Source: an uncultured Candidatus Saccharibacteria bacterium
GTDB lineage: Bacteria > Patescibacteriota > Minisyncoccia > GWC2-36-17 > WO2-46-25
Assembly: GCA_964366905.1 (NCBI GenBank)
Contig: CAYIVQ010000001.1
Span: 1 to 45,156, forward strand
Direction of reading: 5' to 3'
Length of the DNA stretch: 45,156 nucleotides
In this document: one piece after another, positions 603 through 37,578 of the stretch
How positions within the stretch are numbered: the first letter of the stretch is position 1
How the letters are laid out: every line of letters begins with the position of its first letter
Notes under the pieces: generated by a model
What the model saw: only the letters and a program-made list of their open reading frames with translations
Database searches by the model: none
What the model was told of the DNA's origin: nothing
Position numbers and translations under genes: made by a program

Positions 603-636
603 CAACTTAACGGCTTACAACTAACAACTTATAACT

Positions 637-768
637 CTTTGAATTACGAAATAGCCATTTTTGTGTCTTTCTGAGGGAGTCAGCGACCGAAGAATCTCTG
701 AAAATCAAGTAAAATACTAGATTCTTCGCAAGCTCAGAATGACAAACTACGCATTTCGTAATTCAAAG
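637..768. mobile_element. 132-bp MITE-like element, copy A
   Basis: Perfect 16-bp terminal inverted repeats CTTTGAATTACGAAAT / ATTTCGTAATTCAAAG. Flanked by direct TATAACT (630-636 and 769-775). Internal 10-bp stem CGAAGAATCT/AGATTCTTCG. Identical to copy B at 5829-5960. Confidence 0.8.
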
Positions 769-814
769 TATAACTACAATAATGAAAAAGTTTAGATTTT
801 TAGATTAGTTATTT

Positions 815-2752
815 ATGTGGCAAACTGAATTAAAACAATATATTGCTAATGTTTCTAAAATGGGATTTCCTGAAGCAAAAATTCGGGATGTTTTGCGCGG
901 CGCGGGATGGAAAGACGACCAAATTAATGGCGGATTCAAAGCCATAAAATTGATGACAATAATAAACGCGCCTGCTATCGCGCTGGATTTGGAAAAAATC
1001 GCGAAAGTGCAAAGAACTTTTCATGACGATTTGAAAAAAGTAAAATCTCAAGAAAAAACCGTTATTTCGCGTCATTCTGAGGAAGTCGGTGACCGAAGAA
1101 TCTCTGAAAATCAAGCAAAATACCGGATTCTTCGCAAGCTCAGAATGACAAATAAGAAGCTTAGTAATCCAAAGTTAATAAAAGAAACATACGAGCATGA
1201 TTATTTTTTGCCGGAAGCCCATGATTATTATCTCGCGCCATCTTCCGCAAGACAACCCGCCGCATTGCTTGCCGGCGCTTCCGCGCCGGCGCCACTAATG
1301 CTTGCTTCGCCGTCATACCTGACGATATGGTGGCGAAAAATTCAATTTTGGACGGAATATTTTTTTACATCATTGGAAGGAGCTCTTGTCATCTTAGGGA
1401 AAACTGCTCTTTTGCCGATTGTGATTATTAGTTTTATTGTCACTGCCATTACTGTATCCATTAAGTCGGTCGCGGCAAAAAAACCTAAAATAAAACAAAC
1501 TCCTGCAATAGAATCTATTACCGAATTTGCATCCGTCTCTGAACAAAATTTTCCGGAACATATTTTAATCCGAGATGTTTTTAGGCTTGCGGGAAGAATG
1601 TTTCGGACCCGCCGCCTGCGGACATTTTTGACAATATTGGGTATCAGCGTCGGCATCGGCACTATTTTATTTTTAGTTTCGCTCGGTTATGGAATGCAAA
1701 ATGTTTTATTTGAAAAAATCACAACCGAAGAAGCATTATTGACTCTAGACGCGATGCCGCCATCCGATAATACTGTGGTTGCTATTAATAAACAATTGGT
1801 GGATAAAATTAAAGAAATCAACGGAGTAGCGGAAGTAAGCGCTATGACAACATTAAGCGGCTCGATTTTGTGGAAAGATTTTTCCGCCGCCGGACTTGTC
1901 AATGTAGTTGACCCGTCTTATTTAAGACTTGCAGGAGTCAAACCTATTGCCGGGATGATGCCCGGATTAAGCGAAAAAAACGTGATTGTTGTTTCTTCGG
2001 CTATTATGCAATTATTTAATTTAAATTCTCCGGAAGAAGCGCTTGGCAAAGAATTAACTTTTGTCGTGTCTTTGGAGAACGGAGAAGAGATGAAATCAGT
2101 AAATTTGGATAATAATTTCAAAGTAGTCGGGGTTGTTGATGACTCATTTTCGGTATTTGCGTATATCTCAAAAGAAGATATTCCGGATTTTGATATTTCC
2201 GAATATTCGCAATTAAAAGTTAAAGTCGCGGACTCTCAATTATTGGAGCCTGTCAGAGAACAATTATTGACTCACGGGCTTTTAGTGTCCGCTCTTTCGG
2301 AAACAGTCGATCAAGCGCGTAAAGTTTTCAATATTGTCCGATTGATACTCGGATTATTTGGCATCATCACTTTAGTGGTTTCCGCTATCGGCATGTTAAA
2401 CACTATGACCATCGCCTTGCTTGAAAGAACGCAGGAAGTAGGGATAATGAAAGCGATTGGCGCTTCTGATTTTGATATTTGGAAGCTGTTTTTAGCTGAA
2501 GCTATGATTATGGGATTTTTTGGAGGAATAGGAGGGATAGCGATGGGTTACTTGAGCGCTAATCTGTTTAATTTAGGCATCAACGCTTTGGCGAAAGCTT
2601 TTGGCGGTCAAAGCCTCAACTTCTTTCAAACCCCGTCATGGTTTGTGCTGACAATCGTAATATTCTCGGTGACTGTCGGCATGATCACCGGTCTTTGGCC
2701 AGCTCGTCGAGCGTCAAGATTGGACCCATTGGACGCGTTGAAATACAAATAA
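815..2752 (+). CDS. ABC transporter permease, MacB/FtsX-like, with ~250-aa N-terminal extension
   Basis: First TM RTFLTILGISVGIGTILF, a large extracytoplasmic loop, then a C-terminal FtsX-type region (IMKAIGASDFDIWKLFLAEAMIMGFFGG). The consensus-like N-terminus (IRDVFRLAGRMFRTRRLR) has no nearby ATG, which supports the long ORF. Confidence 0.8.
   Translation: MWQTELKQYIANVSKMGFPEAKIRDVLRGAGWKDDQINGGFKAIKLMTIINAPAIALDLEKIAKVQRTFHDDLKKVKSQEKTVISRHSEEVGDRRISENQAKYRILRKLRMTNKKLSNPKLIKETYEHDYFLPEAHDYYLAPSSARQPAALLAGASAPAPLMLASPSYLTIWWRKIQFWTEYFFTSLEGALVILGKTALLPIVIISFIVTAITVSIKSVAAKKPKIKQTPAIESITEFASVSEQNFPEHILIRDVFRLAGRMFRTRRLRTFLTILGISVGIGTILFLVSLGYGMQNVLFEKITTEEALLTLDAMPPSDNTVVAINKQLVDKIKEINGVAEVSAMTTLSGSILWKDFSAAGLVNVVDPSYLRLAGVKPIAGMMPGLSEKNVIVVSSAIMQLFNLNSPEEALGKELTFVVSLENGEEMKSVNLDNNFKVVGVVDDSFSVFAYISKEDIPDFDISEYSQLKVKVADSQLLEPVREQLLTHGLLVSALSETVDQARKVFNIVRLILGLFGIITLVVSAIGMLNTMTIALLERTQEVGIMKAIGASDFDIWKLFLAEAMIMGFFGGIGGIAMGYLSANLFNLGINALAKAFGGQSLNFFQTPSWFVLTIVIFSVTVGMITGLWPARRASRLDPLDALKYK
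1043..1174 (+). repeat. decayed 132-bp MITE copy C, translated inside the permease CDS
   Basis: Core 1071-1153 is about 90% identical by eye to copies A/B. The right end is collinear (28 nt from GACAAA to CAAAG, as in A). The left end is degenerate. Read in frame as SRHSEEVGDRRISENQAKYRILRKLRMTNKKLSNPK. Confidence 0.7.
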
Positions 2753-2771
2753 AACTAATTTCTAATAAACT

Positions 2772-2813
2772 AAATTACGCATATAATTACTATAGTAACT
2801 ATACACGTAATTT
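2772..2813. promoter_or_regulatory. 42-bp imperfect palindrome (18/21 pairs) upstream of the PaaX-like gene; candidate operator and/or terminator of the permease gene
   Basis: AAATTACGCATATAATTACTA|TAGTAACTATACACGTAATTT centred on CTATAG. Related to the perfect palindrome at 3410-3467. Ends 21 nt before the ATG at 2835. Confidence 0.5.
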
Positions 2814-2834: not shown

Positions 2835-3419
2835 ATGAAAAAACAAAATAGATCAAAAAATTTACCAAGATTAAAAATTGGCCACACAGGTCAAAAGATT
2901 TTGCTTTTAATCAGCGCTGGGTTAACACTTAGTTTAACACACAGACCGGATCAATATTTTCGAATCATCGCAAACACTAGATATGAATGGCAGAAAATCA
3001 ACAACAGATGTTTGCATGAAGCGATTAAAAGATTATATCAATCAAAGTTAATAGATTATAAAGAAAACAACGATGGGACGATTGTTTTAGTTTTATCCGA
3101 ACAGGGGACACAAAAAATATTAAAATATAATTTAGACACAATAAAATTACAGAGACATGATGAATGGGACGGATTATGGCGATTAGTGATATTTGATATT
3201 CCCGAGCATTTTAAGAAAGGAAGAAGCGCGTTATCAAATAAATTAAAACAACTCGGTTTTTACCCTCTTCAAAAAAGTGTTTTTATTTATCCTTATGAGT
3301 GTAAAAATGAAACTGATTTTATTATTGAGTTTTTTGGAATGAAACCATATGTTAGATTCATTTTAGCCAAAGAAACTGATATTGATTTAGACTTGAAAAA
3401 TAAATTTAATCTAACCTAA
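2835..3419 (+). CDS. PaaX-like regulator (winged-helix N-terminus, PaaX/Cas2-like C-terminal domain)
   Basis: WDGLWRLVIFDIPEHFKKGRSALSNKLKQLGFYPLQKSVFIYP matches the PaaX-family C-terminal signature as I remember it. The central HEAIKRLYQSKLIDYKENNDGTIVLVLSEQG looks like a wHTH. Confidence 0.55.
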   Translation: MKKQNRSKNLPRLKIGHTGQKILLLISAGLTLSLTHRPDQYFRIIANTRYEWQKINNRCLHEAIKRLYQSKLIDYKENNDGTIVLVLSEQGTQKILKYNLDTIKLQRHDEWDGLWRLVIFDIPEHFKKGRSALSNKLKQLGFYPLQKSVFIYPYECKNETDFIIEFFGMKPYVRFILAKETDIDLDLKNKFNLT

Positions 3420-3467
3420 ATTACGTGTATAATTACTATAGTAATTATACACGTAATTTAGGTTAGA
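3410..3467. repeat. 58-bp perfect palindrome between convergent PaaX-like gene and recG
   Basis: Verified base by base: 3438-k pairs with 3439+k for k=0..28, with no loop and no mismatch. Overlaps the stop codon at 3417-3419. Core shared with 2772-2813. Confidence 0.9.
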
Positions 3468-3485
3468 GATGATTATTGTTTATGT

Positions 3486-5774
3486 TTATTCAAAATGAAT
3501 TTTTGCGTTAAATCGCGCAAGATAATTTTTCAGTTTCGGATGGCGGGTTAGTTCCGAGTCTTCTTTAAGCAATTGTATTGCTTCTTCGCGCGCTTCTTTT
3601 ATTAAAATTTTGTTAGTGAGCGACGCCATGGTTAAATCCGGCAGACCGGATTGGCGAGTGCCGAGAAAATCCCCCGGCCCTCTGATTTCCAAATCCTTTT
3701 CCGCGAGCTCAAACCCGTTCTGGCAATTTATTAATGCTTTCAGCCGTCTGCTATTTGCCAATGTCGTATTTTCCGCGAATAAAAGGCAGTATGATTGATA
3801 TTCTCCTCGGCCCACTCTGCCTCTGAATTGATGAAGTTGCGCCAAACCGAAATGCTCCGCCCCTTCAATAAGCATCAAAACGGCATTTGGCACATCAATG
3901 CCGACTTCTATGACTGAAGTTGAAACTAAAATATTGAAGCGATTGGCCTTGAATTCCTTCATGATCCGCTCTTTTTCTTGCGGCTTCATTTTGCCGTGCA
4001 ACATTTCTATTTTCAGATCGGGGAAAATTTCACTGGAAAGTTTTTGATATTCTTCTTTGACAGTTTTGACTTCTTTTTTAAGCAATTCTTGCTGATATGT
4101 TTTTTCGCTTTTGATTTTTGAATCTTCCTGCGCGTCTATTCTCGGACAAATCACAAATGCTTGCCTGCCTTTTCTAATCTCTTCGCGAACAAAATCATAA
4201 GCAGACGTTCGTTCTGAAGGAGTTATTATTTTTGTAACAATATTTTTACGATTTTTCGGCATCTCATTAAGCAAAGAAATATCCAAATCGCCGTATAACG
4301 TGAGAGTGAGAGTGCGCGGTATCGGAGTGGCAGTCATTGATAAAAGATGGGGCATCAGACCGCTTACCGTTTTATATCTTTGCAAAAGTTCAGCCCGCTG
4401 ATTAACACCAAAACGATGCTGTTCATCAAGCACGATAAGTCCTAAGGAAGGGAAAGAGACTTTTTCTGAAATTAGCGCGTGAGTTCCAGTAGTAATTAAA
4501 AGCTTTTTGGACGTTAGCTGATTTAAAAATTCCTGTTTTTTCAGCTTATATTCCGACTTAACTTCAGAATCAAATATTTCAGCGCTGTTGCCGGTAAGCA
4601 GACCGACATTAAAGCCAAATTCGGCAACCATACTGCTTAAAGTATGAAAATGCTGGCGGGCAAGCACTTCGGTTGGCGCCATTATGGCAATTTGGCGGCC
4701 TTTAGAAGCCGCGTTTAACGCGGCAATCGCCGCCACGACCGTTTTACCGGATCCAACATCGCCTTCAAGCAAGCGATTCATCGGGATATTTTTTGACATA
4801 TCCTGTAAAATTTCCCACGCGGCCTTGCGTTGAGAATCAGTCAGCGTGAAAGAAAGAGAAGCGACGAATTTTTTTGTTTTTTCTATGTCAAAAGGTATCG
4901 GTGGCGCGGCAGATTTTTTTATTTTTCGTCTTGCTTTCAGTATAATCAGTTGAATGAGAAGCAATTCTTCAAAAGCCAGCCGTCTTTTCGCTTCTTTCAC
5001 TTCATCAGTATTTTCAGGAAAATGAATTTTTAAAATAGCGGAGCTTATGGGAAGCAGATTATGCTTCTTTATGATTTCTTGCGGGAGAATCTCTTCCATT
5101 TGCGCGGCTTGCCCGTCATACGGCGAGTGCTCCCGTTTTGTCCAAGAGCTTTGCGATTGGCGCACAAAACGCAGTCCAGCGAGGCTTTTGCCGAGTCGTG
5201 GCTCCGCTTTCTCCGTTCGCGGGTTGCCGATCGCGTTTTTCACCAGGAATCTGATCCAACGAGAAGTAATGCCCGCGGTTTCACGATATATCGGCACCAA
5301 TCCTCCAGTATGCGTATGTTCGGAAGTCGAACTTTCAAATATTCTTTCATAAGCGGGATTTTGCAAATATAAAGAGTTGCCGTAAGAAACCGCCTTTCCG
5401 GCCAAATTCACTAAACTGCCGATTTTCAGATTTCGAATCAAAAACGGCTGGTTGAACCACACTGCTTTTATCATGCCGCTTTCATCTGAAACTTCCGCTT
5501 CAGTAACATACATATTTTTTTTCCATGTCCGTTTGTTCGTTATTTTATCTATTTTCGCGCGAATAGTCGCAGTTTCACCAGGAGTCAATTCGGCTATATT
5601 TACAATTTTTGAGAAATCATCATATCGAAATGGAATATGCCGCAAAAGATCATAAACAGTATGAATGCCCAAAACTTTAAGTGGTTTGACAATCTTATAG
5701 TTGACTCCTTTTAACTTTTCTATCGGGTCGGATAAACCGATATTTTTTATATGAGTTTTACCTATCATAAACAA
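3486..5774 (-). CDS. recG: ATP-dependent DNA helicase RecG
   Basis: 762 aa. N-terminal wedge region (HIPFRYDD), Walker A GDVGSGKT, DEQHRFG box, C-terminal helicase motifs (QLHQFRGRVGRG), TRG-like end. Confidence 0.93.
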   Translation of the reverse strand: MFMIGKTHIKNIGLSDPIEKLKGVNYKIVKPLKVLGIHTVYDLLRHIPFRYDDFSKIVNIAELTPGETATIRAKIDKITNKRTWKKNMYVTEAEVSDESGMIKAVWFNQPFLIRNLKIGSLVNLAGKAVSYGNSLYLQNPAYERIFESSTSEHTHTGGLVPIYRETAGITSRWIRFLVKNAIGNPRTEKAEPRLGKSLAGLRFVRQSQSSWTKREHSPYDGQAAQMEEILPQEIIKKHNLLPISSAILKIHFPENTDEVKEAKRRLAFEELLLIQLIILKARRKIKKSAAPPIPFDIEKTKKFVASLSFTLTDSQRKAAWEILQDMSKNIPMNRLLEGDVGSGKTVVAAIAALNAASKGRQIAIMAPTEVLARQHFHTLSSMVAEFGFNVGLLTGNSAEIFDSEVKSEYKLKKQEFLNQLTSKKLLITTGTHALISEKVSFPSLGLIVLDEQHRFGVNQRAELLQRYKTVSGLMPHLLSMTATPIPRTLTLTLYGDLDISLLNEMPKNRKNIVTKIITPSERTSAYDFVREEIRKGRQAFVICPRIDAQEDSKIKSEKTYQQELLKKEVKTVKEEYQKLSSEIFPDLKIEMLHGKMKPQEKERIMKEFKANRFNILVSTSVIEVGIDVPNAVLMLIEGAEHFGLAQLHQFRGRVGRGEYQSYCLLFAENTTLANSRRLKALINCQNGFELAEKDLEIRGPGDFLGTRQSGLPDLTMASLTNKILIKEAREEAIQLLKEDSELTRHPKLKNYLARFNAKIHFE
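5112..5228 (-). repeat. intragenic GC-rich repeat, 114-nt long form, in recG
   Basis: Read on the recG strand as (G)NPRTEKAEPRLGKSLAGLRFVRQSQSSWTKREHSPYDG. The 72-nt internal segment is identical to that at 24330-24401. Confidence 0.85.
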
Positions 5775-5828
5775 TATACTATCATGTTCTTTAGTATTTT
5801 TGAATTATATTATATAATAGCTATAATC

Positions 5829-5960
5829 CTTTGAATTACGAAATAGCCATTTTTGTGTCTTTCTGAGGGAGTCAGCGACCGAAGAATCTCTGAAAATCAA
5901 GTAAAATACTAGATTCTTCGCAAGCTCAGAATGACAAACTACGCATTTCGTAATTCAAAG
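5829..5960. mobile_element. 132-bp MITE-like element, copy B
   Basis: Identical to copy A. Flanked by direct TATAATC (5822-5828 and 5961-5967). Fills most of the recG / GGDEF divergent intergenic region. Confidence 0.8.
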
Positions 5961-5980
5961 TATAATCAGTAAAACACAAG

Positions 5981-17088: not shown

Positions 17089-17766
17089 ATGACTAATAAG
17101 CATGCAAAATTTATAAAAGCGCTTAGAACAGAGCGGGGTTTTTCGCAGTCTTTTGTAGCGGATAAATTAGATCTTTCACGCCCATCTTATGTGTCAATAG
17201 AAAATGGAAGCAGAGGTCTTACCCTGGCAGAAGCAGAAAAATTAAAAGATTTATTTGGAATCTCTATTGGGGAGTTTGCAAAAGCCACTTTACCAAAATA
17301 TGAAAAGTATAAGCAAATGATTCTTGCTTATTTACAATCACCACTTTCGTCAGATGGAAAAGTTCCAAAAACAAAACTTGCTAAGCTTTTATATTTGGCT
17401 GATTTTGCTTGGTATTACAATAAACTCGAAAGTATGAGTGGAATGCAATATCTCCGTAGAACATATGGGCCAGTTCCTGATCCGTATTTTAGAGCGCTGG
17501 CTGAACTTGAAGAAGAAGGAAAAATAACAGTTGACTATAAAGGCGACGCTGTTCTTGTTGGCGCAGGCGCCAAACATCAAAAACTCGACTTAATAAGTGA
17601 AGATGAGTTAAATTTAATGAAAAAAATATCCACTAAATGGAAAAATAAAAGAACACAGGAAATTGTGGACTTCACTCATGAGCAGTTGCCTTATAAACTT
17701 TGTTCTCCTGACGAAGCAATTCCGTACGAATTGATAATCCAGCAAGATCCGGACTATGTTTACTAA
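17089..17766 (+). CDS. HTH-XRE + Panacea (DUF4065/SocA-like) domain protein, putative PanA-type antitoxin
   Basis: N-terminal IKALRTERGFSQSFVADKLDLSRPSYVSIENG (XRE HTH). C-terminal KTKLAKLLYLADFAWYY...RRTYGPVPDPYF resembles the DUF4065 signature. Confidence 0.7.
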   Translation: MTNKHAKFIKALRTERGFSQSFVADKLDLSRPSYVSIENGSRGLTLAEAEKLKDLFGISIGEFAKATLPKYEKYKQMILAYLQSPLSSDGKVPKTKLAKLLYLADFAWYYNKLESMSGMQYLRRTYGPVPDPYFRALAELEEEGKITVDYKGDAVLVGAGAKHQKLDLISEDELNLMKKISTKWKNKRTQEIVDFTHEQLPYKLCSPDEAIPYELIIQQDPDYVY

Positions 17767-18151
17767 TTATGTTGTTGTTATAGAACAATATGCGGAAAGA
17801 CACTTTATCTCTACTTTTAAAAAGAAATATAAAGGCGCTTGGGATGTCACGTGGGTAGGTATGCATGAGGAATTTAAGCGCATTAATACATTAATTGGTC
17901 GAACAAATATCGCGGAAACCATTACTGAAGCCGGAGATATTAAAATATGTAAAACAGAATTTCGTGTTCATGGCAAACAAGAATCAAGGCATTCATCTGG
18001 AAATAGGTGTATTATCGCTATTCACAAAAATACATCAACAGTTCATGTCTTATTGGTGTATAGTAAAACTGATTTAGGCGGTGGGAATGAAACAGCGAAT
18101 TGGAAAAATAAAGTAAGAGAAAATTATAATCAGTATTCTAAAATAATCTAA
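17756..18151 (+). CDS. putative toxin partner (RelE/HigB-like fold suspected)
   Basis: 11-nt overlap with the upstream antitoxin-like gene. KTEFRVHGKQESRHSSGNRCIIAIHKNTSTVHVLLVYSKTD resembles the GKSGGYR-I...LL.IY.K core of RelE/HigB-type toxins. Assignment is from memory only. Confidence 0.45.
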   Translation: MFTNYVVVIEQYAERHFISTFKKKYKGAWDVTWVGMHEEFKRINTLIGRTNIAETITEAGDIKICKTEFRVHGKQESRHSSGNRCIIAIHKNTSTVHVLLVYSKTDLGGGNETANWKNKVRENYNQYSKII

Positions 18152-19300: not shown

Positions 19301-19572
19301 ACTATTTCGTCTATATTCTCAAATGTGCTGATGATACTCTTTATGTCGGCTCTACTAATGATTTGGCAAAGAGGATTATTCAACATAATACGGCAAAGGC
19401 GGGGGCGCATTACACAAAAATCCGGCGGCCGGTGGAGCTGGTATATTCGGAAACTGTGGAAACTCTTTCAAGGGCGCTCAAGCGAGAAGCTGAAATTAAA
19501 CTCTGGCGCAGGGATAAGAAAATAAAACTCATTCAACCCGCGAACACAGAGAGCGGAGCAGTCGCCGTATGA
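19297..19572 (+). CDS. GIY-YIG nuclease-family protein (UPF0213-like)
   Basis: YFVYILKCADDTLYVGSTNDLAKRIIQH...REAEIK. The last 11 codons and the stop come from the intragenic repeat. Confidence 0.85.
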   Translation: MNYFVYILKCADDTLYVGSTNDLAKRIIQHNTAKAGAHYTKIRRPVELVYSETVETLSRALKREAEIKLWRRDKKIKLIQPANTESGAVAV

Positions 19573-19576
19573 CGGC
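19535..19576 (+). repeat. intragenic GC-rich repeat, 42-nt unit, supplying the GIY-YIG C-terminus and TGA
   Basis: AACCCGCGAACACAGAGAGCGGAGCAGTCGCCGTATGACGGC. Read in its third frame (ANTESGAVAV*), with TGA at 19570-19572. Confidence 0.85.
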
Positions 19577-19618
19577 AATCTACGCGGTAAGGGCATATTT
19601 TGTTATTTATTTTATCCT

Positions 19619-22806: not shown

Positions 22807-22821
22807 CTTTGAATTACGAAA
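22807..22821. repeat. solo MITE terminal repeat
   Basis: CTTTGAATTACGAAA equals the first 15 nt of the 132-bp element. The sequence beyond it is unrelated. Confidence 0.6.
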
Positions 22822-22950
22822 CTCCGCGGACGCTGTTTTTCACAGCCATTATCTAAAACACTCGCTCCTCAGCGATTTCTCTCTTTTTGATATTAATGAA
22901 GAATAAAGTTGTCCTAAAATATGAAGCGCTTCTACCTAAGTTGAGCCATC

Positions 22951-22989: not shown

Positions 22990-23211
22990 ATGCCAATCAC
23001 CAAAACAAGACTTAATATAAGTTTGCCGGATGATGTACGAAATGCATTAAGCAGGCTTGCCCGTCGCGACCAAGTTCCTCAAGCGACTAAAGCGGCGCGT
23101 CTGCTCGAAACAGCTCTTGAGTTAGAAGAAGACCAAGTCTGGGACGCTATTGCCAAACAGCGAGATATTAAAAATGCGCGTTATCTTTCCCATGATAAAG
23201 CATGGAAATAA
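22990..23211 (+). CDS. ribbon-helix-helix (CopG-like) antitoxin
   Basis: TRLNISLPDDVRNALSRLARRDQVPQATKAARLLE. 10-nt overlap with the downstream toxin. Confidence 0.75.
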   Translation: MPITKTRLNISLPDDVRNALSRLARRDQVPQATKAARLLETALELEEDQVWDAIAKQRDIKNARYLSHDKAWK

Positions 23212-23483
23212 TGTTTAATGTTGTCTATCATTATTTAGTGGTTTCTCATGACATTCCTAAGCTTTCCAGTGAATGGAAGAAAAAGATTAGACGAGCGATC
23301 GAAGAGCGTCTCTCTATATATCCTGATCTTTATGGCAGACCGCTAAGACGATCATTGAAAGGATACCGGAAGCTCCGCATAGGTAATTATCGAGTTATTT
23401 TTAGCATTGAGGAAAATACGGTAAAAATTCTCATTATTCAGCACCGTTCAGTGGTTTATGATGAAGTTTCAAAACGAATATAG
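23202..23483 (+). CDS. RelE/StbE-family toxin
   Basis: 93 aa. LKGYRKLRIGNYRVIFSIEENTVKILIIQHRS is the typical RelE/ParE core. Confidence 0.8.
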   Translation: MEIMFNVVYHYLVVSHDIPKLSSEWKKKIRRAIEERLSIYPDLYGRPLRRSLKGYRKLRIGNYRVIFSIEENTVKILIIQHRSVVYDEVSKRI

Positions 23484-23493
23484 ATTGCAGAAA

Positions 23494-24933
23494 CTATAAA
23501 ATATTTTTGCTTGCCGCGGTGCCGGCAACGAATCCGGTGGTCCAGCAGAGTTGGAGCGAATAGCCGCCGGATGGGCGGTCAATGTTGAGCATATCTCCGA
23601 TGATATAAAGATTGGGGAAAAGGCGCGAACGCATCGTCTTTGGATCAATTTCCTCAAGCGAAACTCCACCGCTAGTAATGACGGCTTTGTCCGCACCGAG
23701 AAGTTTGTCCGCGCGCATCGGCAGGTTTTTCAGGCAAGCGATTAATTTCATTCGCTCCTCGCGCGTGATGCTATTTACTACTGTTTCCGGATTGATTTTG
23801 CACTTCGCGATAATAATGGGAGCGAGAGCGGATGGAATAATGCTGTCCAATGAATTCCTGATTTTTTTATTGCTATGTTTTTTAAATAGATCTTTCAGCG
23901 CAATATCAAGCTGTTCGTTATTTAATGATGGGAGAATATCAAGCGACATAACCACTTCTCCGCTTTTTAAAAGTTCGCCGATTGCCTTGCTCATATGCAA
24001 TACCGCGGGTCCGCTGATACCGAAATGGGTAAAAAGAATTTTTCCTCTATTTGTATTATGAACGATTTCATTTTGAATAGCGTTGATTTTTACATCCGCA
24101 ATGCTGACGCCGGAAAGTTGTTTTGCCCATGAGTCTTTTATGGCAACCGGCACAAGCGAAGGAGTGGGTATAGCGATATTATGCCCGAGCTTTTTTAGCC
24201 ACGCAAAGCCATCTCCCGCAGATCCGGTTTCCGGGTGAGAGCCTCCGCCGGCGGCAACAATGATCGCGTTGGCATGGATTTCTTTACCGTCGCGCAATAT
24301 TACGCCAGTTGCCGTCATACGACGACTGCTCCCGTTTTGTCCAAGAGCTTTGCGATTGGCGCACAAAACGCAGTCCAGCGAGGCTTTTGCCGAGTCGTGG
24401 CTCCGCTCTCTGCGTTCGCGGGTTGCCATCATACGGTGACTGCTCCGCTCTCTGCGTTCGCGGGTTGCCTTTGGCATAGACGCGCGGGAAACAATGATAT
24501 CACTAACAGGAGAATCGGATATTACCGTTACTCCGCCTTCGCGCATATATTTCACTAACACATCCCATACCGATCTCGCGCTGTCGCTGGCGGGGAAAAC
24601 CCGCTGTTCATTTTCTATTTTAGTCGCCATCCCGCGAGTATTGAAAAAGTTGAGAGTATCTTGAACGCTCCATTGCGAAAAAGCAGAAAAAAGAAATTTG
24701 CCGTCGTCTTTAAATTTTTCCAAGAATTTTCGCGTATTAAATTCCGCGTTGGTGAGATTGCATCTGCCTCCGCCGGTGATCAAAAGCTTTTTGCCAAGCG
24801 TATCATTTTTTTCAATCAACGCCACGCGCGCTCCGCATTCAGCCGCCCGCCCGGCCGCCATCATCCCCGCAGACCCTCCGCCGATGACAATGACATCCCA
24901 TATGTTATCCGTTTTTGATTTCATATAATTCAT
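23494..24933 (-). CDS. HI0933/BaiN-like FAD-dependent oxidoreductase
   Basis: WDVIVIGGGSAGMMAA, LITGGGRCNLTN, C-terminal GGYSLQLCWTTG. Interrupted in frame by 156 nt of repeat. Confidence 0.85.
   Translation of the reverse strand: MNYMKSKTDNIWDVIVIGGGSAGMMAAGRAAECGARVALIEKNDTLGKKLLITGGGRCNLTNAEFNTRKFLEKFKDDGKFLFSAFSQWSVQDTLNFFNTRGMATKIENEQRVFPASDSARSVWDVLVKYMREGGVTVISDSPVSDIIVSRASMPKATRERRERSSHRMMATRERRERSHDSAKASLDCVLCANRKALGQNGSSRRMTATGVILRDGKEIHANAIIVAAGGGSHPETGSAGDGFAWLKKLGHNIAIPTPSLVPVAIKDSWAKQLSGVSIADVKINAIQNEIVHNTNRGKILFTHFGISGPAVLHMSKAIGELLKSGEVVMSLDILPSLNNEQLDIALKDLFKKHSNKKIRNSLDSIIPSALAPIIIAKCKINPETVVNSITREERMKLIACLKNLPMRADKLLGADKAVITSGGVSLEEIDPKTMRSRLFPNLYIIGDMLNIDRPSGGYSLQLCWTTGFVAGTAASKNIL
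24311..24469 (-). repeat. intragenic GC-rich repeat, tandem 114-nt + 42-nt units
   Basis: 24311-24424 (long) and 24425-24466 (short), plus GCC. Translated on the gene strand in the alternative frame as ATRERRERSSHRMM-ATRERRERSHDSAKASLDCVLCANRKALGQNGSSRRMT. Confidence 0.9.
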
Positions 24934-25012: not shown

Positions 25013-26041
25013 ATGACAAAAGGATTTTGGGAAAAAGATAAGTCGCTTTTCACGCTTGCGCCAATGGCGGACGTGACGGACGCGGCATTCCGGCAAATTA
25101 TTGCCAAATACAGCAGGCCTTATGGCCCCGACGCAATATGGACGGAATTTGTTTCCTGTGACGGCTTGTGTTCTGACGGCAAAGACGCACTGATGCATAA
25201 TCTCTGGTTCACGGAAGTCGAGCGCCCGATTGTGGCGCAATTTTTCGGATCCAAGCCGGATAATTTTTACCGGTGCGCTTTGCTTGCTCAAGAACTCGGT
25301 TTTGACGGCATTGATATCAATATGGGATGTCCGGATAAAAAAGTTGAAAAACAGAATGCCGGCGCGGCGCTGATGCGCAATCATGAATTGGCTCAAAAAA
25401 TAATCATTGAAACGAAGCGTGGAGCGGGAAATCTGCCTGTGTCTGTTAAAACCCGCATCGGGTACGATTCCGATATTTTAGACGAATGGCTGCCAAGATT
25501 GCTTGAAACGGAACCGGACGCCATCACAATTCACGCGCGCACGCGCAAAGAAATGTCTTTAGTGCCAGCTCGCTGGGAAGCGATAGCGCGAGCGGTAGAA
25601 ATCGCACGCCGATATGATTCTTCGCCGAATCGCGCGCTGATTATAGGAAACGGAGATATCGTGAGCATGATAGACGCGGAAGAAAAAGTGCGGCAATCAG
25701 GCGCGGACGGCGCGATGATAGGGCGGGGGATTTTCGGCAACCCATGGTTTTTTAATAGAGAAAAAGATATAAACACAATAAGCATTGAAGAAAAATTATT
25801 AGTGCTGATTGAACACGCTTTTTTGTTTGAAAAATTATTTGCCGGCAACCCGCGAACAGAGAGAGCGGAGCAGTCGTCGTATGACGGCATAAAAAGTTTT
25901 AGCGTAATGAAAAAGCATTTTAAAGCGTATGTGAGCGGATTTGACGGGGCCAAAGATTTGCGAATTAAACTAATGGCCGCGCGCGACGCCAACGACGTCG
26001 CGCAAATCGTAGAAAAATATCGTGCTTTTTTTGTAAAGTAA
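25013..26041 (+). CDS. tRNA-dihydrouridine synthase
   Basis: LAPMADVTDAAFR, DGIDINMGCP, ITIHARTR, GNGDI, IGRG. Confidence 0.9.
   Translation: MTKGFWEKDKSLFTLAPMADVTDAAFRQIIAKYSRPYGPDAIWTEFVSCDGLCSDGKDALMHNLWFTEVERPIVAQFFGSKPDNFYRCALLAQELGFDGIDINMGCPDKKVEKQNAGAALMRNHELAQKIIIETKRGAGNLPVSVKTRIGYDSDILDEWLPRLLETEPDAITIHARTRKEMSLVPARWEAIARAVEIARRYDSSPNRALIIGNGDIVSMIDAEEKVRQSGADGAMIGRGIFGNPWFFNREKDINTISIEEKLLVLIEHAFLFEKLFAGNPRTERAEQSSYDGIKSFSVMKKHFKAYVSGFDGAKDLRIKLMAARDANDVAQIVEKYRAFFVK
25847..25888 (+). repeat. intragenic GC-rich repeat, 42-nt unit, in dus
   Basis: AACCCGCGAACAGAGAGAGCGGAGCAGTCGTCGTATGACGGC read as NPRTERAEQSSYDG. Confidence 0.85.
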
Positions 26042-28565: not shown

Positions 28566-30416
28566 ATGAAAAAAACCGGTCCGACAATCAGAATATTGGA
28601 ATTGTTCAAAAGCCGAAAGAAAGCGGTTCTGATAATGGCGGTTTTTATCACGGCCTCGACAGGACTTGATTTGTCCGTGCCTCTTATTTCTCAAAAACTG
28701 ATTGACAGGCTTATTGAATTTTTCAAAACAGGCGGAGCGCCGCCATTTGGTTTTCTTTTTATATCTGCAATCGGTATTTTAGCTGCTACCATCTTGAGTC
28801 GCGTCTTCAGTTCGCTTTATAATTACAATCTTTTTAAAACCGTGACTCAAGTGGAAGATGAGGCAAGACATGCGGCTTTTGAAAAATATTTGCGTTTGCA
28901 CGCTCTATTTCATCACAAATCATCAAGCGGCCAAATTATCGGCAGGATTGAGCGGGGCGGCGGGGCAATTTACGCAATCGCGCATGATATTTTCGGCCAC
29001 AATCTCATACCGCCGCTAATAGTGTTTATCAGCACATTGGGAGTGCTTTTATTTAAAAATCCATTTATCGCTTTGGTAGTATTCGTGCCATTTCCTCTTT
29101 ACCTTTTAACCATACGGCGGCTTACCGATAAAATATATAATATTGAGAAAGTGGTTAACGAGCAATTTGAAGATGTATCTAAAGAAGCGTATGACGTGGC
29201 CGGCAATGTGCTGACCGTCAAAAAATTCGCTGAAGAGAACGCGGAAGCTGCTAAGCAAAAAAGATTGATGGATAAAGCGAGGCTGACGCAATACGGAGCT
29301 GAACAGCTTTGGAATGTATTAGAAAATATCCAAACATTATTCGCGACCTTAGGTAGAATAGCGGTTATTATTTTGGGAGGCTTTCTAGTCTTGAAAGGTA
29401 TGAGCACTATCGGCGAATTTGTATTGTTCGTTTCCCTTCAAAATATGGTGTATTCTCCTTTAGTGAAATTATCAATCGTATTTCCTCGCTTGCGACGCAA
29501 CACAGCCCGCGCGGAGCGTTTATTTGATATAATAGATGAACCTATCAGCGTTACCGACAAGCTGGACGCGAAAACGCTGCCTCCGCTGGAAAATTCAATT
29601 ATATTCCACGATGTTTCATTCCGCTATGGCAACCCGCAAACGCAGAGAGCAGAGCAGTCATCGTATGATGGCCAAGCTCATCAATGGGCTGTACAAAATA
29701 TCAATATTGAAATTCCGGCGCGCGCGACAGTGGCGCTGGTGGGAAGAAGCGGTAGCGGCAAAACCACTTTTATCAATTTATTGCTTCGCTCATACGACCC
29801 GACAGAAGGAGATATATTGATTGATGGGCAGAATCTGAAGGATGTTAAACGCGAAAGTTTGCTTAAGCAAGTAGCTGTAGTTCCGCAAGAGGTAGATCTC
29901 TTTTCCCGCTCTATTTTAGGCAATATCGCGTACGGGAAGCCGGAAGTAAGTCGTGAAGAAGTCATTCAGGCGGCAAAGACCGCTCTCGCGCATGACTTTA
30001 TTATGAAAACAGAGAATAGATATGATACTATAGTAGGGGAACGAGGCATGAAGCTTTCCGGAGGCGAACGCCAGCGGATCGGAATCGCGCGGGCTGTATT
30101 GCGCGACCCGAAAATCCTGATTTTAGACGAAGCTACCAGCCATTTAGATACCGAAAGCGAACAACTAATCTCTCAAGCAACAGACGATTTAGTAAAAAAC
30201 AGGACAACTATTATCATCGCGCATCGCCTCTCCACAGTTTTAAACGCTGATATGATTTTAGTGTTCAATGATGGAAAAATTGAAGCAAGCGGAAAACACA
30301 ATGAATTATTGAAAACAAGCGCCACATATCAAAAACTTTATTCTTTGCAGTTCCGCGATAACGACAACCCGCGAACACAGAGAGCGGAGCAGTCGCCGTA
30401 TGACGACAAATCTTAA
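28566..30416 (+). CDS. ABC exporter, fused permease/ATPase (MsbA-like)
   Basis: Six-TM N-terminal half. NBD with GRSGSGKTT, LSGGERQRIGIARA, ILILDEATSHLD. Confidence 0.92.
   Translation: MKKTGPTIRILELFKSRKKAVLIMAVFITASTGLDLSVPLISQKLIDRLIEFFKTGGAPPFGFLFISAIGILAATILSRVFSSLYNYNLFKTVTQVEDEARHAAFEKYLRLHALFHHKSSSGQIIGRIERGGGAIYAIAHDIFGHNLIPPLIVFISTLGVLLFKNPFIALVVFVPFPLYLLTIRRLTDKIYNIEKVVNEQFEDVSKEAYDVAGNVLTVKKFAEENAEAAKQKRLMDKARLTQYGAEQLWNVLENIQTLFATLGRIAVIILGGFLVLKGMSTIGEFVLFVSLQNMVYSPLVKLSIVFPRLRRNTARAERLFDIIDEPISVTDKLDAKTLPPLENSIIFHDVSFRYGNPQTQRAEQSSYDGQAHQWAVQNINIEIPARATVALVGRSGSGKTTFINLLLRSYDPTEGDILIDGQNLKDVKRESLLKQVAVVPQEVDLFSRSILGNIAYGKPEVSREEVIQAAKTALAHDFIMKTENRYDTIVGERGMKLSGGERQRIGIARAVLRDPKILILDEATSHLDTESEQLISQATDDLVKNRTTIIIAHRLSTVLNADMILVFNDGKIEASGKHNELLKTSATYQKLYSLQFRDNDNPRTQRAEQSPYDDKS
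29631..29672 (+). repeat. intragenic GC-rich repeat, 42-nt unit, in the ABC exporter NBD
   Basis: AACCCGCAAACGCAGAGAGCAGAGCAGTCATCGTATGATGGC read as NPQTQRAEQSSYDG, between FRYG and the Walker A strand. Confidence 0.85.
30366..30407 (+). repeat. intragenic GC-rich repeat, 42-nt unit, forming the ABC exporter C-terminal tail
   Basis: AACCCGCGAACACAGAGAGCGGAGCAGTCGCCGTATGACGAC read as NPRTQRAEQSPYDD, 3 codons before the stop. Confidence 0.85.
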
Positions 30417-35597: not shown

Positions 35598-36601
35598 GCT
35601 TTGATTATAAATTTACTACCGAGGTAAAAATCATATCCGCTCATCGGTTTCTTACCTTCCGGCTGGACTGTTTCCAAAATCAGGCAATCTTTAGCAGTAT
35701 TTAGCGCTAATTTTTTGTCGCTGGTCAAGAAAAAACTCATAGGCGGCAATTTATTTCCACACTCTGAAATTCTTGCTTTTAATATTTTTAATATTTTCTT
35801 TTTTGATTTGTGATTCTTGATTTGTGATTCATAATTCATGTATGCCCCAGGCCATGGATTAAACGCTCTTATCATCCGTTCTATATATTCCGCATCCATA
35901 TCCGGCTTGATTTCACCGTCTTCTTTCTGAAATATTTTAGTCAATGTGGCTTTTGAATCGTTCTGCTCTTTTGGTTGGATTTTGCCGGCAAACCAAAGCG
36001 ACAAAACCTCAAGAAGCAAATCGGCGCCAACTTCAGCCATTTTCCGCATCAGAGTAATCGCGGTTTCGTCCAAAGCAATTGGAAACGCTTTTTGCGCCAA
36101 TATCGGTCCATGGTCCAATTCCTCGTCCACAACCATAATCGTCGGACCGGTTTCTTTATGGCCTTCCAAAATCGCAGTCTGAACAGGGGATGCGCCGCGC
36201 AAAAGCGGCAAAAGAGAGCCATGAACATTTAATATGCCGAATGGCGGAATATCTAATATCTCTTGCGGAATAATTTTCCCATAAGCGGCCACGATAATTA
36301 TATCGGGTTTTTCTTCCTTGATTTTAGCTATGACGCCAGCATCTTTTAATTTATCGGGTTGAAAAATTTTGATACCGCCCTTGATTCGTGATTCGTGATT
36401 CATGATTCTTTGTTTAACCGGCGGGGAAGTGAGAATTTGTTTCCTGCCTGTCGGCTTGTCTGGTTGTGTTATAACTAAATCAGGTTTGTATATTTCTGAT
36501 TGAATAAGTCTATCCAGAATATCAGCCGCAAGTTCGGTAGTGCCCATAAATATTATACGATGTTTATTTATCATATTCTTAATTCTTGATTCATAATTCA
36601 T
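35594..36601 (-). CDS. fmt: methionyl-tRNA formyltransferase
   Basis: IIFMGT, VAAYGKIIP, NVHGSLLPLLRGASPVQ, PWPGAY. The true start may be the downstream MINKH. Confidence 0.9.
   Translation of the reverse strand: MNYESRIKNMINKHRIIFMGTTELAADILDRLIQSEIYKPDLVITQPDKPTGRKQILTSPPVKQRIMNHESRIKGGIKIFQPDKLKDAGVIAKIKEEKPDIIIVAAYGKIIPQEILDIPPFGILNVHGSLLPLLRGASPVQTAILEGHKETGPTIMVVDEELDHGPILAQKAFPIALDETAITLMRKMAEVGADLLLEVLSLWFAGKIQPKEQNDSKATLTKIFQKEDGEIKPDMDAEYIERMIRAFNPWPGAYMNYESQIKNHKSKKKILKILKARISECGNKLPPMSFFLTSDKKLALNTAKDCLILETVQPEGKKPMSGYDFYLGSKFIIKA
35804..35838 (-). repeat. period-7 repeat motif H1 inside fmt
   Basis: TGATTTG TGATTCT TGATTTG TGATTCA TAATTCA on the + strand. Translated as MNYESQIKNHKS. 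Confidence 0.8.
36382..36409 (-). repeat. period-7 repeat motif H2 inside fmt
   Basis: TGATTCG TGATTCG TGATTCA TGATTCT on the + strand. Translated as RIMNHESRI. Confidence 0.85.
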
Positions 36602-36608
36602 GATTCGT
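36574..36608 (-). repeat. period-7 repeat motif H3 spanning the def stop / fmt start
   Basis: TATTCTT AATTCTT GATTCAT AATTCAT GATTCGT on the + strand. Encodes the fmt MNYESRIKN and the def ...ITNHEL*. Confidence 0.8.
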
Positions 36609-37073
36609 TATGCTTTCCGCCTTATCTTTAAATAAAATCCCATTCAAATGGTCTATTTCGTGCTGGAATAGTTGCGCGACAAGACCATCCGCTTTCATTT
36701 TGAATTTTCTGCCGTTTTGATTGTATGCTTCAATCTTTAATGATTCCGCGCGCTTGATTTTGCCATACAAGCCCAGCACTGAAAGACATCCTTCGTCCAT
36801 CAGTTTAGCTTTCTCTGAAATTTTTGTTATTACCGGATTGATAAAAACAACTTGATTTAATCCCAAAGCGGAAGACACGACAAATATCCTTAAATTCCTG
36901 CCGACTTGAGGCGCCGCTATGCCAATCCCGTTTTTCGCGATTGCCAGCGTATCTTGCATATCCTCGATAAGATTTTGGATCTCCGTATTTAAAATATCGG
37001 CTACCTCTTCAGATCTTGCCCTTAAAATGGGGTTTTTCACTTCTGATTCGATTACTATGGTAAGTATTGACAT
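36591..37073 (-). CDS. def: peptide deformylase
   Basis: GIGIAAPQVG, EGCLS, HEIDHLNG. Confidence 0.93.
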   Translation of the reverse strand: MSILTIVIESEVKNPILRARSEEVADILNTEIQNLIEDMQDTLAIAKNGIGIAAPQVGRNLRIFVVSSALGLNQVVFINPVITKISEKAKLMDEGCLSVLGLYGKIKRAESLKIEAYNQNGRKFKMKADGLVAQLFQHEIDHLNGILFKDKAESITNHEL

Positions 37074-37497: not shown

Positions 37498-37578
37498 TAC
37501 AAAATACTTATATTATCAGGGGATTCTTCGCAAAGCTCAGAATGACAACCATGATTTACTGAGTTTCATAACCCAAAG
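37498..37578. repeat. partial (right-half) copy D of the 132-bp MITE
   Basis: AAAATACT...GGATTCTTCGCAAAGCTCAGAATGACAAC...CCCAAAG matches the loop, right stem and right end of copies A/B with indels. Confidence 0.6.

What the first reader, a model, noticed from the sequence alone, without database searches (positions are those of the whole stretch)
637..768. A 132-bp MITE-like element with perfect 16-bp terminal inverted repeats and a 7-bp target-site duplication, with two identical copies 5 kb apart
Positions 637-768 and 5829-5960 are identical over 132 bp. The termini are CTTTGAATTACGAAAT and ATTTCGTAATTCAAAG. Copy A is flanked by TATAACT on both sides and copy B by TATAATC on both sides. 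The flanks differ between copies in their last two bases, so they are target-derived duplications, with an apparent TATAA target preference.

The interior is an extended imperfect palindrome (TTCTGAG/CTCAGAA and CGAAGAATCT/AGATTCTTCG). No transposase is present in the window, so the element is non-autonomous. The identity of the two copies implies recent mobility.
Basis: seen in the sequence. Interest (0 to 1): 0.7.

Follow-up and report, generated by a model that had tools for sequence, protein, structure and literature searches.

The report
IS982-derived MITE in a groundwater CPR bacterium
The two identical 132-bp repeats are real miniature transposons whose ends exactly match a 1-kb IS982-family insertion sequence common in Patescibacteria (CPR bacteria), so this is an ordinary kind of mobile element found in a group where it had not been described.

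Summary
Window 637-768 and 5829-5960 are 132/132 identical. Each has perfect 16-bp terminal inverted repeats (CTTTGAATTACGAAAT) and its own 7-bp direct flank (TATAACT; TATAATC).

The MITE interpretation is supported and can now be made specific.
- The same terminal sequence bounds 85 short elements (50-411 bp, many subfamilies) in about 100 Patescibacteria MAG contigs. They carry 6-7-bp target duplications of differing AT-rich sequence: 17 of 85 match 7/7, against 0.5 expected.
- The same terminal sequence also bounds intact 991-1025-bp insertion sequences. These encode a 267-aa DDE transposase of the IS982 family and have 6-7-bp duplications.
- A sister strain whose GGDEF protein is 96% identical has a collinear RecG-GGDEF spacer without copy B.
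- The window encodes no transposase.

The claimed TATAA target preference does not generalise. The target is roughly T-W-W-W-W-T-A.

The window also holds older remnants: a decayed copy read in frame inside the FtsX-type permease gene (1065-1174), a solo end (22807-22822) and a fragment (about 37501-37578).

IS982-derived MITEs are already known (MITECca01 in Cardinium). This is therefore a new member of a known kind. It is notable mainly for its near-invariant ends and its wide spread among Patescibacteria lineages.

The parts
630..636 (.). Left target-site duplication of copy A (TATAACT)
   Evidence: identical 7-mer on both sides of copy A.
637..768 (+). MITE copy A, 132 bp. It lies in the 212-bp spacer between the ABC ATPase gene (ends 602) and the FtsX/MacB-type permease gene (starts 815).
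   Evidence: Sister contigs L180 and L181 have these two genes 5 bp apart with no element.
637..652 (+). Left terminal inverted repeat of copy A, CTTTGAATTACGAAAT. This is the presumed transposase binding and cleavage site.
   Evidence: The same 16-mer ends the IS982-family insertion sequences in L169-L178, L075 and L014.
753..768 (-). Right terminal inverted repeat of copy A
769..775 (.). Right target-site duplication of copy A (TATAACT)
5822..5828 (.). Left target-site duplication of copy B (TATAATC). Its first six bases are the -10 hexamer of a predicted promoter, TTGAAT-16-TATAAT (5800-5827).
5829..5960 (+). MITE copy B, 132 bp, identical to copy A. It lies in the divergent spacer between recG (minus strand) and the GGDEF gene (starts 5981).
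   Evidence: It is absent from the collinear spacer of sister strain L182.
5829..5844 (+). Left terminal inverted repeat of copy B
5945..5960 (-). Right terminal inverted repeat of copy B
5961..5967 (.). Right target-site duplication of copy B (TATAATC)
1065..1174 (+). Copy C, an older 5'-truncated copy. It is 85.6% identical to element positions 23-132 and its right TIR has decayed to AGTAATCCAAAG. It is read in frame within ORF 815-2752 and falls within the protein segment ...EKTVISRHSEEVGDRRISENQAKYRILRKLRMTNKKLSN...
   Evidence: The segment is missing from the closest homologues P0121 and P0123 and differs in P0122.
22807..22822 (+). Solo left TIR (CTTTGAATTACGAAAC, one mismatch) with no partner; a remnant of a further copy.
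   Evidence: By my own estimate, a 16-mer with at most one mismatch is expected about 0.001 times by chance in 2 x 45 kb.
37501..37578 (+). Decayed 3' part of a further copy. GATTCTTCGCAAAGCTCAGAATGACAAC is followed by a degenerate right end, TTTCATAACCCAAAG.
   Evidence: (26/27 match, seen in L162-L167).

Best explanation
The 132-bp repeats are non-autonomous miniature inverted-repeat transposable elements (MITEs). They belong to a family mobilised in trans by the DDE transposase of a roughly 1-kb IS982-family insertion sequence that is widespread in Patescibacteria (CPR bacteria).

Inferred mechanism, based on how DDE transposases of the IS4/IS5/IS982 group work: the transposase recognises the 16-18-bp termini (CTTTGAATTACGAAAT[GC]), cleaves at the element ends, and joins them to a target cut with a 7-bp (sometimes 6-bp) stagger. 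Repair of the stagger produces the flanking direct repeat.

Shown here:
- The termini are identical to those of transposase-bearing copies.
- Copy-specific 7-bp duplications are present.
- There are many independent insertions in intergenic AT-rich sites.
- One sister strain has an empty site.
- No transposase is encoded in the window.

Inferred: that this transposase is the one that moves the element, that movement was recent (the two copies are identical and copy B is absent from a close sister), and that the source of transposase lies elsewhere in the genome or community.

The interior is a long imperfect hairpin. Beyond the TIR I found no similarity between it and the sampled insertion sequences. 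Its core also occurs without these TIRs in an unrelated metagenome contig. This subfamily was therefore probably built by TIRs coming to flank a pre-existing hairpin repeat rather than by a simple internal deletion.
For: - Identity, TIRs and flanks.
- Short elements: 85 short TIR pairs of 50-411 bp fall into many subfamilies.
- Duplications: 17 of 85 have perfect 7/7 flank matches (shuffled mean 0.49, maximum 5), 32 of 85 have at most one mismatch (shuffled mean 2.8), and 36 of 85 have a perfect 6- or 7-mer. The sequences differ between copies.
- Location: 81 of 84 copies are intergenic.
- Autonomous partner: L075 825-1821 is a 997-bp element with the same TIRs and a frameshifted DDE gene (PF13612; NF033520, 123 bits).
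- Intact transposases: 267-aa homologues number 1600 hits, some named 'IS982 family transposase' by NCBI. They sit in 991-1025-bp elements ending in the same 16-mer, with duplications TATAATA, TCCTAAA, TAATTTA and TGGATA.
- Family assignment: NF033520 scores 118-132 bits, against at most 47 bits for any other transposase family.
- Partial derivation: some MITE subfamilies share about 36 nt with the IS left end.
- Empty site: L182 has a GGDEF protein 96% identical, a collinear spacer, and 23 nt before the ATG where the window has 23 nt plus 139 nt.
- No transposase in the window.
Against: - No autonomous copy was found in the window or shown to be in the same genome, so trans-mobilisation in this organism is inferred.
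- The interior of this 132-bp subfamily shows no similarity to the sampled insertion sequences beyond the TIR, so derivation from the IS is not shown for the interior.
- Most intact transposases score just under NCBIfam's IS982 cut-off (118-128 bits against 130; one scores 131.8). They form a divergent branch.
- The sister contigs lacking copy A also lack about 73 bp around it, so that site is not a clean empty site.
- The identity of the two copies could in principle be maintained by gene conversion rather than reflect recent insertion.
Confidence: 0.9

Rival explanations
1. The element is a structured cis-regulatory RNA or small RNA gene that was duplicated upstream of two genes. On this reading it is not mobile, and its 'TIRs' are simply the base of a functional hairpin.
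For: Both copies lie in the same orientation, 46 and 20 bp upstream of a plus-strand gene start. The element folds into a very stable hairpin (-45 kcal/mol, z = -6.5). Copy B sits directly downstream of a predicted promoter and would then be transcribed as a 5' leader.
Against: No Rfam family matches. The fold is equally good on the other strand. Each copy has its own 7-bp duplication. The same ends bound a transposase gene elsewhere. A sister strain lacks copy B. The interior is not conserved across the family; only the ends are. A secondary regulatory effect of the insertion is not excluded.
Confidence: 0.03
2. The repeats are a REP/BIME-like or IS200/IS605-type palindromic element (PATE) moved by a single-strand HUH (Y1) transposase such as a RAYT or TnpA.
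For: The whole element is an extended imperfect palindrome. The core of the interior hairpin occurs elsewhere without these TIRs (L183).
Against: HUH-mobilised elements make no target-site duplication and have no terminal inverted repeats matched to a DDE insertion sequence (established knowledge of these families). Here 6-7-bp duplications are the rule, and the ends equal those of a DDE (IS982-type) insertion sequence. No Y1 transposase turned up near any copy.
Confidence: 0.02
3. The two identical copies are an assembly or segmental-duplication artefact, or are kept identical by gene conversion, rather than the result of two independent recent insertions.
For: The copies are only 5.2 kb apart and 100% identical. 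One contig (L003) breaks in both copies.
Against: Two other independent assemblies contain both copies with different flanking genes (L001 and L002). Each copy has a different 7-bp duplication. A composite or duplicated segment would share outer flanks only. Gene conversion cannot create the duplications or the empty site in L182, although it could contribute to the identity.
Confidence: 0.03

Closest known systems
MITECca01 / MITECca02, MITEs derived from ISCca4 (IS982 family) in Cardinium cOegib (PMC9769881)
   Same: Both are short, non-coding elements whose inverted repeats match those of a roughly 1-kb IS982-family insertion sequence. Both are mostly intergenic and are thought to be kept mobile by intact parental copies (compared).
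   Different: The host phylum differs (Bacteroidota endosymbiont versus Patescibacteria). Size differs: about 240 bp in a single lineage-specific family, versus many subfamilies of 50-411 bp here that share one near-invariant 16-bp end across many candidate phyla. The 132-bp subfamily here shares only the TIR with the sampled insertion sequences, whereas MITECca01 keeps subterminal IS sequence.
IS982 family insertion sequences (for example IS982, IS1187, ISAba825, ISAba9, ISCca4)
   Same: The parental element here is about 1 kb with a single DDE transposase ORF. That ORF is best matched by NF033520 (IS982) and PF13612. It has short TIRs and a small target duplication of 6-7 bp. IS982 members are known to alter expression of neighbouring genes through outward or hybrid promoters (PMC9330008).
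   Different: This is a divergent branch: most members score just below the NCBIfam cut-off. The ends start CT/CC, not the 'AC' that I recall from ISfinder's family table (from memory, not tested). No outward promoter was detected at the ends of the 132-bp element.
Classical bacterial MITEs such as Correia elements (Neisseria), RUP (Streptococcus pneumoniae) and Nezha (cyanobacteria)
   Same: The anatomy is the same: 100-200 bp, TIRs, target duplication, hairpin-forming, intergenic and multicopy, sometimes co-transcribed with neighbouring genes (own knowledge).
   Different: Those families have other TIR sequences, other parental transposases (IS630-type or unknown) and mostly TA or other duplications. 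No sequence relationship was seen here.
Rickettsia palindromic elements (RPEs)
   Same: Copy C is read through in frame inside a protein-coding gene, adding about 40 residues to a variable linker. RPEs do the same (own knowledge).
   Different: Only one such case was seen here. 81 of 84 family members are intergenic, and there is no sequence similarity to RPEs.

Membership tests
Bacterial MITE (non-autonomous DDE-type element) | Short (tens to a few hundred bp) and without coding capacity for a transposase | tested here: met
   The element is 132 bp. tblastn with four IS982-type transposases finds nothing in the window. Pfam annotation of the window's genes shows no transposase.
Bacterial MITE (non-autonomous DDE-type element) | Terminal inverted repeats | tested here: met
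   Perfect 16-bp TIRs in both copies.
Bacterial MITE (non-autonomous DDE-type element) | Target-site duplication that differs between copies | tested here: met
   The flanks are TATAACT and TATAATC here. Across the family, 17 of 85 match 7/7 and 32 of 85 have at most one mismatch, against 0.49 and 2.8 in shuffled pairings.
Bacterial MITE (non-autonomous DDE-type element) | TIRs shared with an autonomous element that encodes a transposase | tested here: met
   Elements of 991-1025 bp with the same 16-mer ends encode an intact 267-aa DDE transposase. A frameshifted copy is in L075.
Bacterial MITE (non-autonomous DDE-type element) | Presence/absence polymorphism (empty site) between related genomes | tested here: met
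   Copy B is absent from the collinear spacer of L182, whose neighbouring protein is 96% identical. Copy C is absent from homologues that are 84-89% identical. The copy A site is inconclusive because the surrounding spacer is also missing.
Bacterial MITE (non-autonomous DDE-type element) | Interior derived from the parental IS by internal deletion | tested here: not met
   For the 132-bp subfamily, only the TIR matches the four insertion sequences sampled. Other subfamilies share up to about 36 nt with the IS left end. This feature is usual in MITEs but not obligatory.
Bacterial MITE (non-autonomous DDE-type element) | Mobilisation in trans by the parental transposase | not testable with these tools
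   This needs a transposition assay or population time series.
IS982 family (parental insertion sequence) | DDE transposase recognised by the IS982 family models | tested here: met
   NF033520 scores 117.8-131.8 bits against a cut-off of 130. One of four intact proteins passes; the others fall just short. The next best family scores at most 47 bits. PF13612 DDE_Tnp_1_3 also matches. NCBI names P0001 'IS982 family transposase'.
IS982 family (parental insertion sequence) | About 1 kb, single ORF, flanked by short TIRs | tested here: met
   Elements are 991, 997, 1006, 1014, 1016 and 1025 bp, each with one 267-279-aa ORF and 16-18-bp TIRs.
IS982 family (parental insertion sequence) | Small target duplication (3-9 bp according to ISfinder, recalled from memory) | tested here: met
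   Duplications of 6-7 bp at L168, L171/L174, L179 and L014.
IS982 family (parental insertion sequence) | Ends beginning 'AC' (ISfinder family table, recalled from memory) | tested here: not met
   The ends are CTTTG or CCTTG. I could not check ISfinder, and this is a tendency rather than a defining trait.
REP/RAYT or IS200/IS605-type palindromic elements | No target-site duplication; mobilised by an HUH Y1 transposase | tested here: not met
   Duplications are the rule, and the ends match a DDE insertion sequence.
Known RNA families (Rfam 15) | Match to a covariance model at gathering score | tested here: not met
   Only a tRNA at 16871-16941 matches in the whole window.

The most novel reading that the evidence does not exclude
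The element may be one face of a MITE/IS982 superfamily, spread across many Patescibacteria lineages and so far undescribed, whose near-invariant 16-bp ends have moved repeatedly between very distant CPR lineages and at least one predicted viral contig. On this reading the superfamily actively reshapes these tiny genomes in three ways:
- It inserts at promoter -10 boxes and becomes a 132-nt hairpin leader (copy B).
- It is absorbed in frame into protein linkers (copy C).
- It possibly carries cargo genes between two MITEs as a composite transposon (L060: sortase plus glycosyltransferase between two MITEs, with identical outer 7-mers).

If so, it would be a major vehicle of gene regulation change and horizontal transfer in CPR bacteria rather than junk DNA.
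Probability: 0.15. Interest if true: 0.55.

Novelty: new member of a known kind. Interest (0 to 1): 0.3.

Why it matters
CPR/Patescibacteria have very small genomes and are usually described as poor in mobile DNA. This work shows that one IS982-type insertion sequence and a swarm of MITE subfamilies derived from it share the same 16-bp ends across Saccharibacteria, Staskawiczbacteria, Nealsonbacteria, Campbellbacteria, Kuenenbacteria, Magasanikbacteria and other lineages.

That has three practical uses:
- It explains many contig breaks in CPR MAGs. Dozens of contigs end 35-55 nt inside the element.
- It provides a simple marker (CTTTGAATTACGAAAT) for annotating these repeats.
- It offers strain-level presence/absence markers.

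For the window itself, copy B separates the GGDEF gene from its predicted promoter by a 132-nt hairpin, and an older copy contributes about 40 residues to a permease. Both are testable cases of MITE impact on gene expression and protein sequence. None of this changes how MITEs are thought to work.

Tried and rejected
- **Rfam scan of the window:** no RNA family at the element.
- **16-mer scan of viral contigs:** 39 single hits, nearly all chance. One (L014) later proved to be a real IS.
- **Transposase next to solo TIRs and long TIR pairs:** all neighbours are housekeeping genes except L075.
- **Clustering of all ORFs in the 119 loci:** no recurrent transposase. The recurrent families are IF-2, VirD4-like, histidine kinase, MreB and the like.
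- **Literature searches:** searches for CPR/Patescibacteria MITEs and for the TIR sequence itself found nothing relevant.
- **Outward or hybrid promoter at the element's right end (plus manual inspection):** none with sigma-70 spacing. The only promoter-like site is upstream of copy B and uses the left duplication as its -10.
- **Composite transposon made of copies A and B:** rejected, because each copy has its own different duplication.
- **L060 MITE-flanked composite:** the outer 7-mers are identical, but the first MITE also has its own 6/7 duplication and the target consensus is loose. Unresolved.
- **Metagenome scan for the 132-bp subfamily interior:** no further copies, only an unrelated hairpin and a chance hit.
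- **Clean empty site for copy A:** not obtained, because the sisters lack the whole spacer.
- **Showing the IS in the same genome or the same ERZ12926xx samples:** not achieved. The IS was found in the ERZ272547xx series, which also holds the sister-strain contigs.

Full report
**Observation.** Window 637-768 and 5829-5960 are identical over 132 bp. The 16-mer CTTTGAATTACGAAAT occurs exactly four times, as the two ends of each copy in inverted orientation. Copy A is flanked on both sides by TATAACT and copy B by TATAATC. The inverted repeat stops at 16 bp (AGCC on the left, GCGT on the right). The element folds into one long imperfect hairpin (-45 kcal/mol, z = -6.5; equally good on the other strand). 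Both copies are present unchanged in two independent assemblies of the same groundwater site (L001 and L002).

**Context.** The window (about 40% G+C) matches contigs from the Hainich H52 groundwater metagenomes, 0.1-0.2 µm fractions. Its proteins find their closest named relatives among Patescibacteria/CPR. Copy A lies between an ABC ATPase gene and an FtsX/MacB-type permease gene. Copy B lies in the divergent spacer between recG and a GGDEF gene. No gene in the window is a transposase (tblastn). Rfam finds only a tRNA.

**The family.** I scanned one genome per species (GTDB) for the end sequence plus two half-specified bases. About 104 of them are labelled Saccharibacteria, Staskawicz-, Nealson-, Campbell-, Kuenen-, Magasanik-, Morani-, Vogel- or Jorgensenbacteria, Paceibacteria, or 'Patescibacteria group', including Hainich bins. 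In these loci I found 85 short elements bounded by the same inverted ends, 50-411 bp long. They fall into many subfamilies (110, 122, 124, 133, 153, 172 bp and others) whose interiors are unrelated or only distantly related. Positions 3-16 of the end are nearly invariant, and positions 17-18 are mostly GC. Many contigs stop 35-55 nt inside the element, as expected for a repeat that breaks assemblies.

**Target-site duplications.**
- In 17 of 85 elements the 7 bases on the left equal the 7 on the right. Shuffled left/right pairings give a mean of 0.49 and a maximum of 5.
- In 32 of 85 the two flanks differ by at most one base (shuffled mean 2.8).
- In 36 of 85 there is a perfect 6- or 7-mer.

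The duplicated sequences differ from copy to copy (TAAGTTA, TATTTTA, TAGACTA, TCCATAA, TTGACAA and others). They therefore come from the target, not the element. The family-wide target is a loose AT-rich T-W-W-W-W-T-A, so a specific TATAA preference is not supported. Of 84 copies, 81 are intergenic.

**The autonomous partner.** ORFs next to solo ends and ORFs recurrent across the loci were all housekeeping genes, with one exception. L075 825-1821 is a 997-bp element with the same ends and a frameshifted DDE transposase gene (PF13612; NF033520 IS982, 123 bits). A conceptual join of its two ORF pieces found 1600 homologues, mostly 267 aa. Many sit on contigs of about 1 kb, and NCBI names some of them 'IS982 family transposase [Candidatus Kuenenbacteria]'. 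I fetched the contigs of six of these proteins:
- P0058 lies in a 991-bp element ending exactly in CTTTGAATTACGAAATGG...GCATTTCGTAATTCAAAG. One insertion has the duplication TATAATA.
- P0002 lies in a 1014-bp element with the duplication TCCTAAA.
- P0032 lies in a 1006-bp element with the duplication TAATTTA.
- P0044 lies in a 1016-bp element with ends CCTTGAATTACGAAATGC.
- P0025's 1039-bp contig (L189) shows only the left end.

A transposase that is 51% identical, in a predicted viral contig (L014), has the same ends, a length of 1025 bp and the duplication TGGATA. Intact proteins score 118-132 bits on the IS982 model (cut-off 130) and at most 47 bits on any other family. This is a divergent branch of IS982. 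Some MITE subfamilies share about 36 nt with the IS left end. The window's 132-bp subfamily shares only the TIR.

**Empty sites.** The closest GGDEF homologue (96% identical, L182) lies in a collinear recG-GGDEF spacer. In L182, 23 nt separate a conserved TATATAAT block from the ATG. The window has the homologous 23 nt plus exactly the element and one extra 7-mer. The closest permease homologues (84-89% identical, L180 and L181) have the ABC and permease genes 5 bp apart. Copy A is therefore absent, but so is the roughly 73 bp around it, and that site is not a clean empty site.

**Older copies in the window.**
- Window 1065-1174 is 85.6% identical to element positions 23-132. It lies inside ORF 815-2752 and is read in frame. 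Part of the region that looked like a decayed left TIR is native gene sequence shared with the sisters, while the right TIR is recognisable but decayed. The encoded segment is missing from P0121 and P0123 and differs in P0122.
- A solo left end with one mismatch sits at 22807-22822.
- A decayed 3' part sits at about 37501-37578.

The element therefore has a longer history in this lineage than the two identical copies suggest.

**Mechanism.**
- Shown: shared ends with a DDE insertion sequence, copy-specific 6-7-bp duplications, intergenic AT-rich targets, presence/absence between close relatives, and no transposase in cis.
- Inferred from established knowledge of DDE transposases: the IS982-type transposase binds the 16-18-bp ends, excises or copies the element, and inserts it at a 7-bp staggered cut.
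- Not shown: that a functional transposase exists in this genome.

The interior hairpin core (GTCATTCTGAG...GAAGAATCT / AGATTCTTCG...CTCAGAATGAC) also occurs without these ends in an unrelated contig (L183). This subfamily may therefore have arisen when TIRs came to flank a pre-existing hairpin repeat.

**Possible consequences (inference only).** The left duplication of copy B is the -10 hexamer of the only promoter-like site upstream of the GGDEF gene (TTGAAT-16-TATAAT, 5800-5827). Transcription from that site would have to read through the 132-nt hairpin. I found no outward or hybrid promoter with proper spacing at the element's right end.

**Comparison with what is known, and verdict.** MITEs derived from IS982-family elements are already described: MITECca01 and MITECca02 from ISCca4 in Cardinium (PMC9769881). 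IS982 members are known to influence neighbouring genes (PMC9330008). The held literature contains no description of MITEs in CPR/Patescibacteria or of this end sequence. The finding is a genuine MITE, correctly read by the first stage, and is a new member of a known kind. Its modest interest lies in how widely one near-invariant end sequence has spread across Patescibacteria lineages, and in the two local cases of possible functional impact.

Noticed in passing
window 5113-5228, 19534-19578, 24312-24469, 25844-25889, 29628-29672, 30362-30409, 45102-45146: A G+C-rich dispersed repeat with core GGCAACCCGCGAACRCAGAGAGCGGAGCAGTCRCCGTATGAYGGC occurs at least 8 times, mostly inside unrelated housekeeping ORFs (recG, an HI0933-like flavoprotein, dus, and an ABC transporter twice). 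It always has the same orientation relative to the gene. It is read as GNPRTQRAEQSPYDG in one frame and ATRERRERSSHRMM in another. It looks like an in-frame mobile insertion, similar in effect to Rickettsia palindromic elements. The apparent 456 versus 479 aa polymorphism of the HI0933-like gene is only a difference in start-codon call.
   Followed up: partly
window 815-2752 (protein residues about 70-125) and homologues P0127, P0129: The variable N-terminal linker of this FtsX/MacB-type permease has taken up repeat-derived peptides independently in different lineages. The window has the MITE-derived segment ...HSEEVGDRRIS...ILRKLRMT.... P0129 has DRHSEGVGDRRISGILRKTQDD. P0127 has IPAKAGIQTGFP.
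   Followed up: partly
window 2766-2813 and 3410-3467: Two near-identical palindromes of about 48 nt (AAATTACGTGTATAATTACTATAGTAATTATACACGTAATTT) bracket the 194-aa PaaX_M/Cas2-like ORF at 2835-3419. They may be operators, terminators or the ends of a small cassette.
   Followed up: no
L060 1300-3742 (Staskawiczbacteria MHPA01000020.1): Two MITEs of this family (195 bp and 100 bp) flank a 2.1-kb segment that encodes a sortase-like protein and a family-2 glycosyltransferase. The outer flanks are the identical 7-mer TAAATTA, which suggests a MITE-bounded composite transposon. However, the first MITE also has its own 6/7 duplication, so the case is unresolved.
   Followed up: partly
L014 about 2866-3890, minus strand (IMGVR_UViG_3300005683_000207): A contig classed as viral carries a 1025-bp IS982-type insertion sequence with the same 16-bp ends, a transposase 51% identical to the CPR ones, and a 6-bp duplication TGGATA. 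This is a possible route of transfer between hosts, or the contig may be misclassified.
   Followed up: partly
L183 1131-1246 (Ga0136611_10054553): The core of the MITE's interior hairpin (GTCATTCTGAGCG..GAAGAATCT / AGATTCTTCGCAAGCTCAGAATGACAAAC) occurs in an unrelated, more G+C-rich metagenome contig without the IS982-type ends. The hairpin module seems to exist independently of this MITE.
   Followed up: partly
window 35802-36609: Short tandem or dispersed TTGATTCGTGATTC-type repeats lie inside the methionyl-tRNA formyltransferase gene (35594-36601, minus strand). Strain contigs differ in this gene's length (335 versus 317 aa), and likewise for priA (638 versus 623 aa).
   Followed up: no
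L044, L104, L128, L141 (MAGs labelled Poribacteria, Gammaproteobacteria, Methylomirabilis): Bona fide MITEs of this family, some with duplications, occur on contigs binned to non-CPR taxa. This could be mis-binning of CPR contigs or real transfer outside Patescibacteria. I did not resolve which.
   Followed up: no
window 17089-18151 and about 22990-23480: Two small toxin-antitoxin-like modules are present: HTH plus SocA/Panacea antitoxin (17089-17766) with a downstream 131-aa ORF, and an RHH/ParE pair seen in the matching contigs. The second lies next to the solo MITE end at 22807.
   Followed up: no
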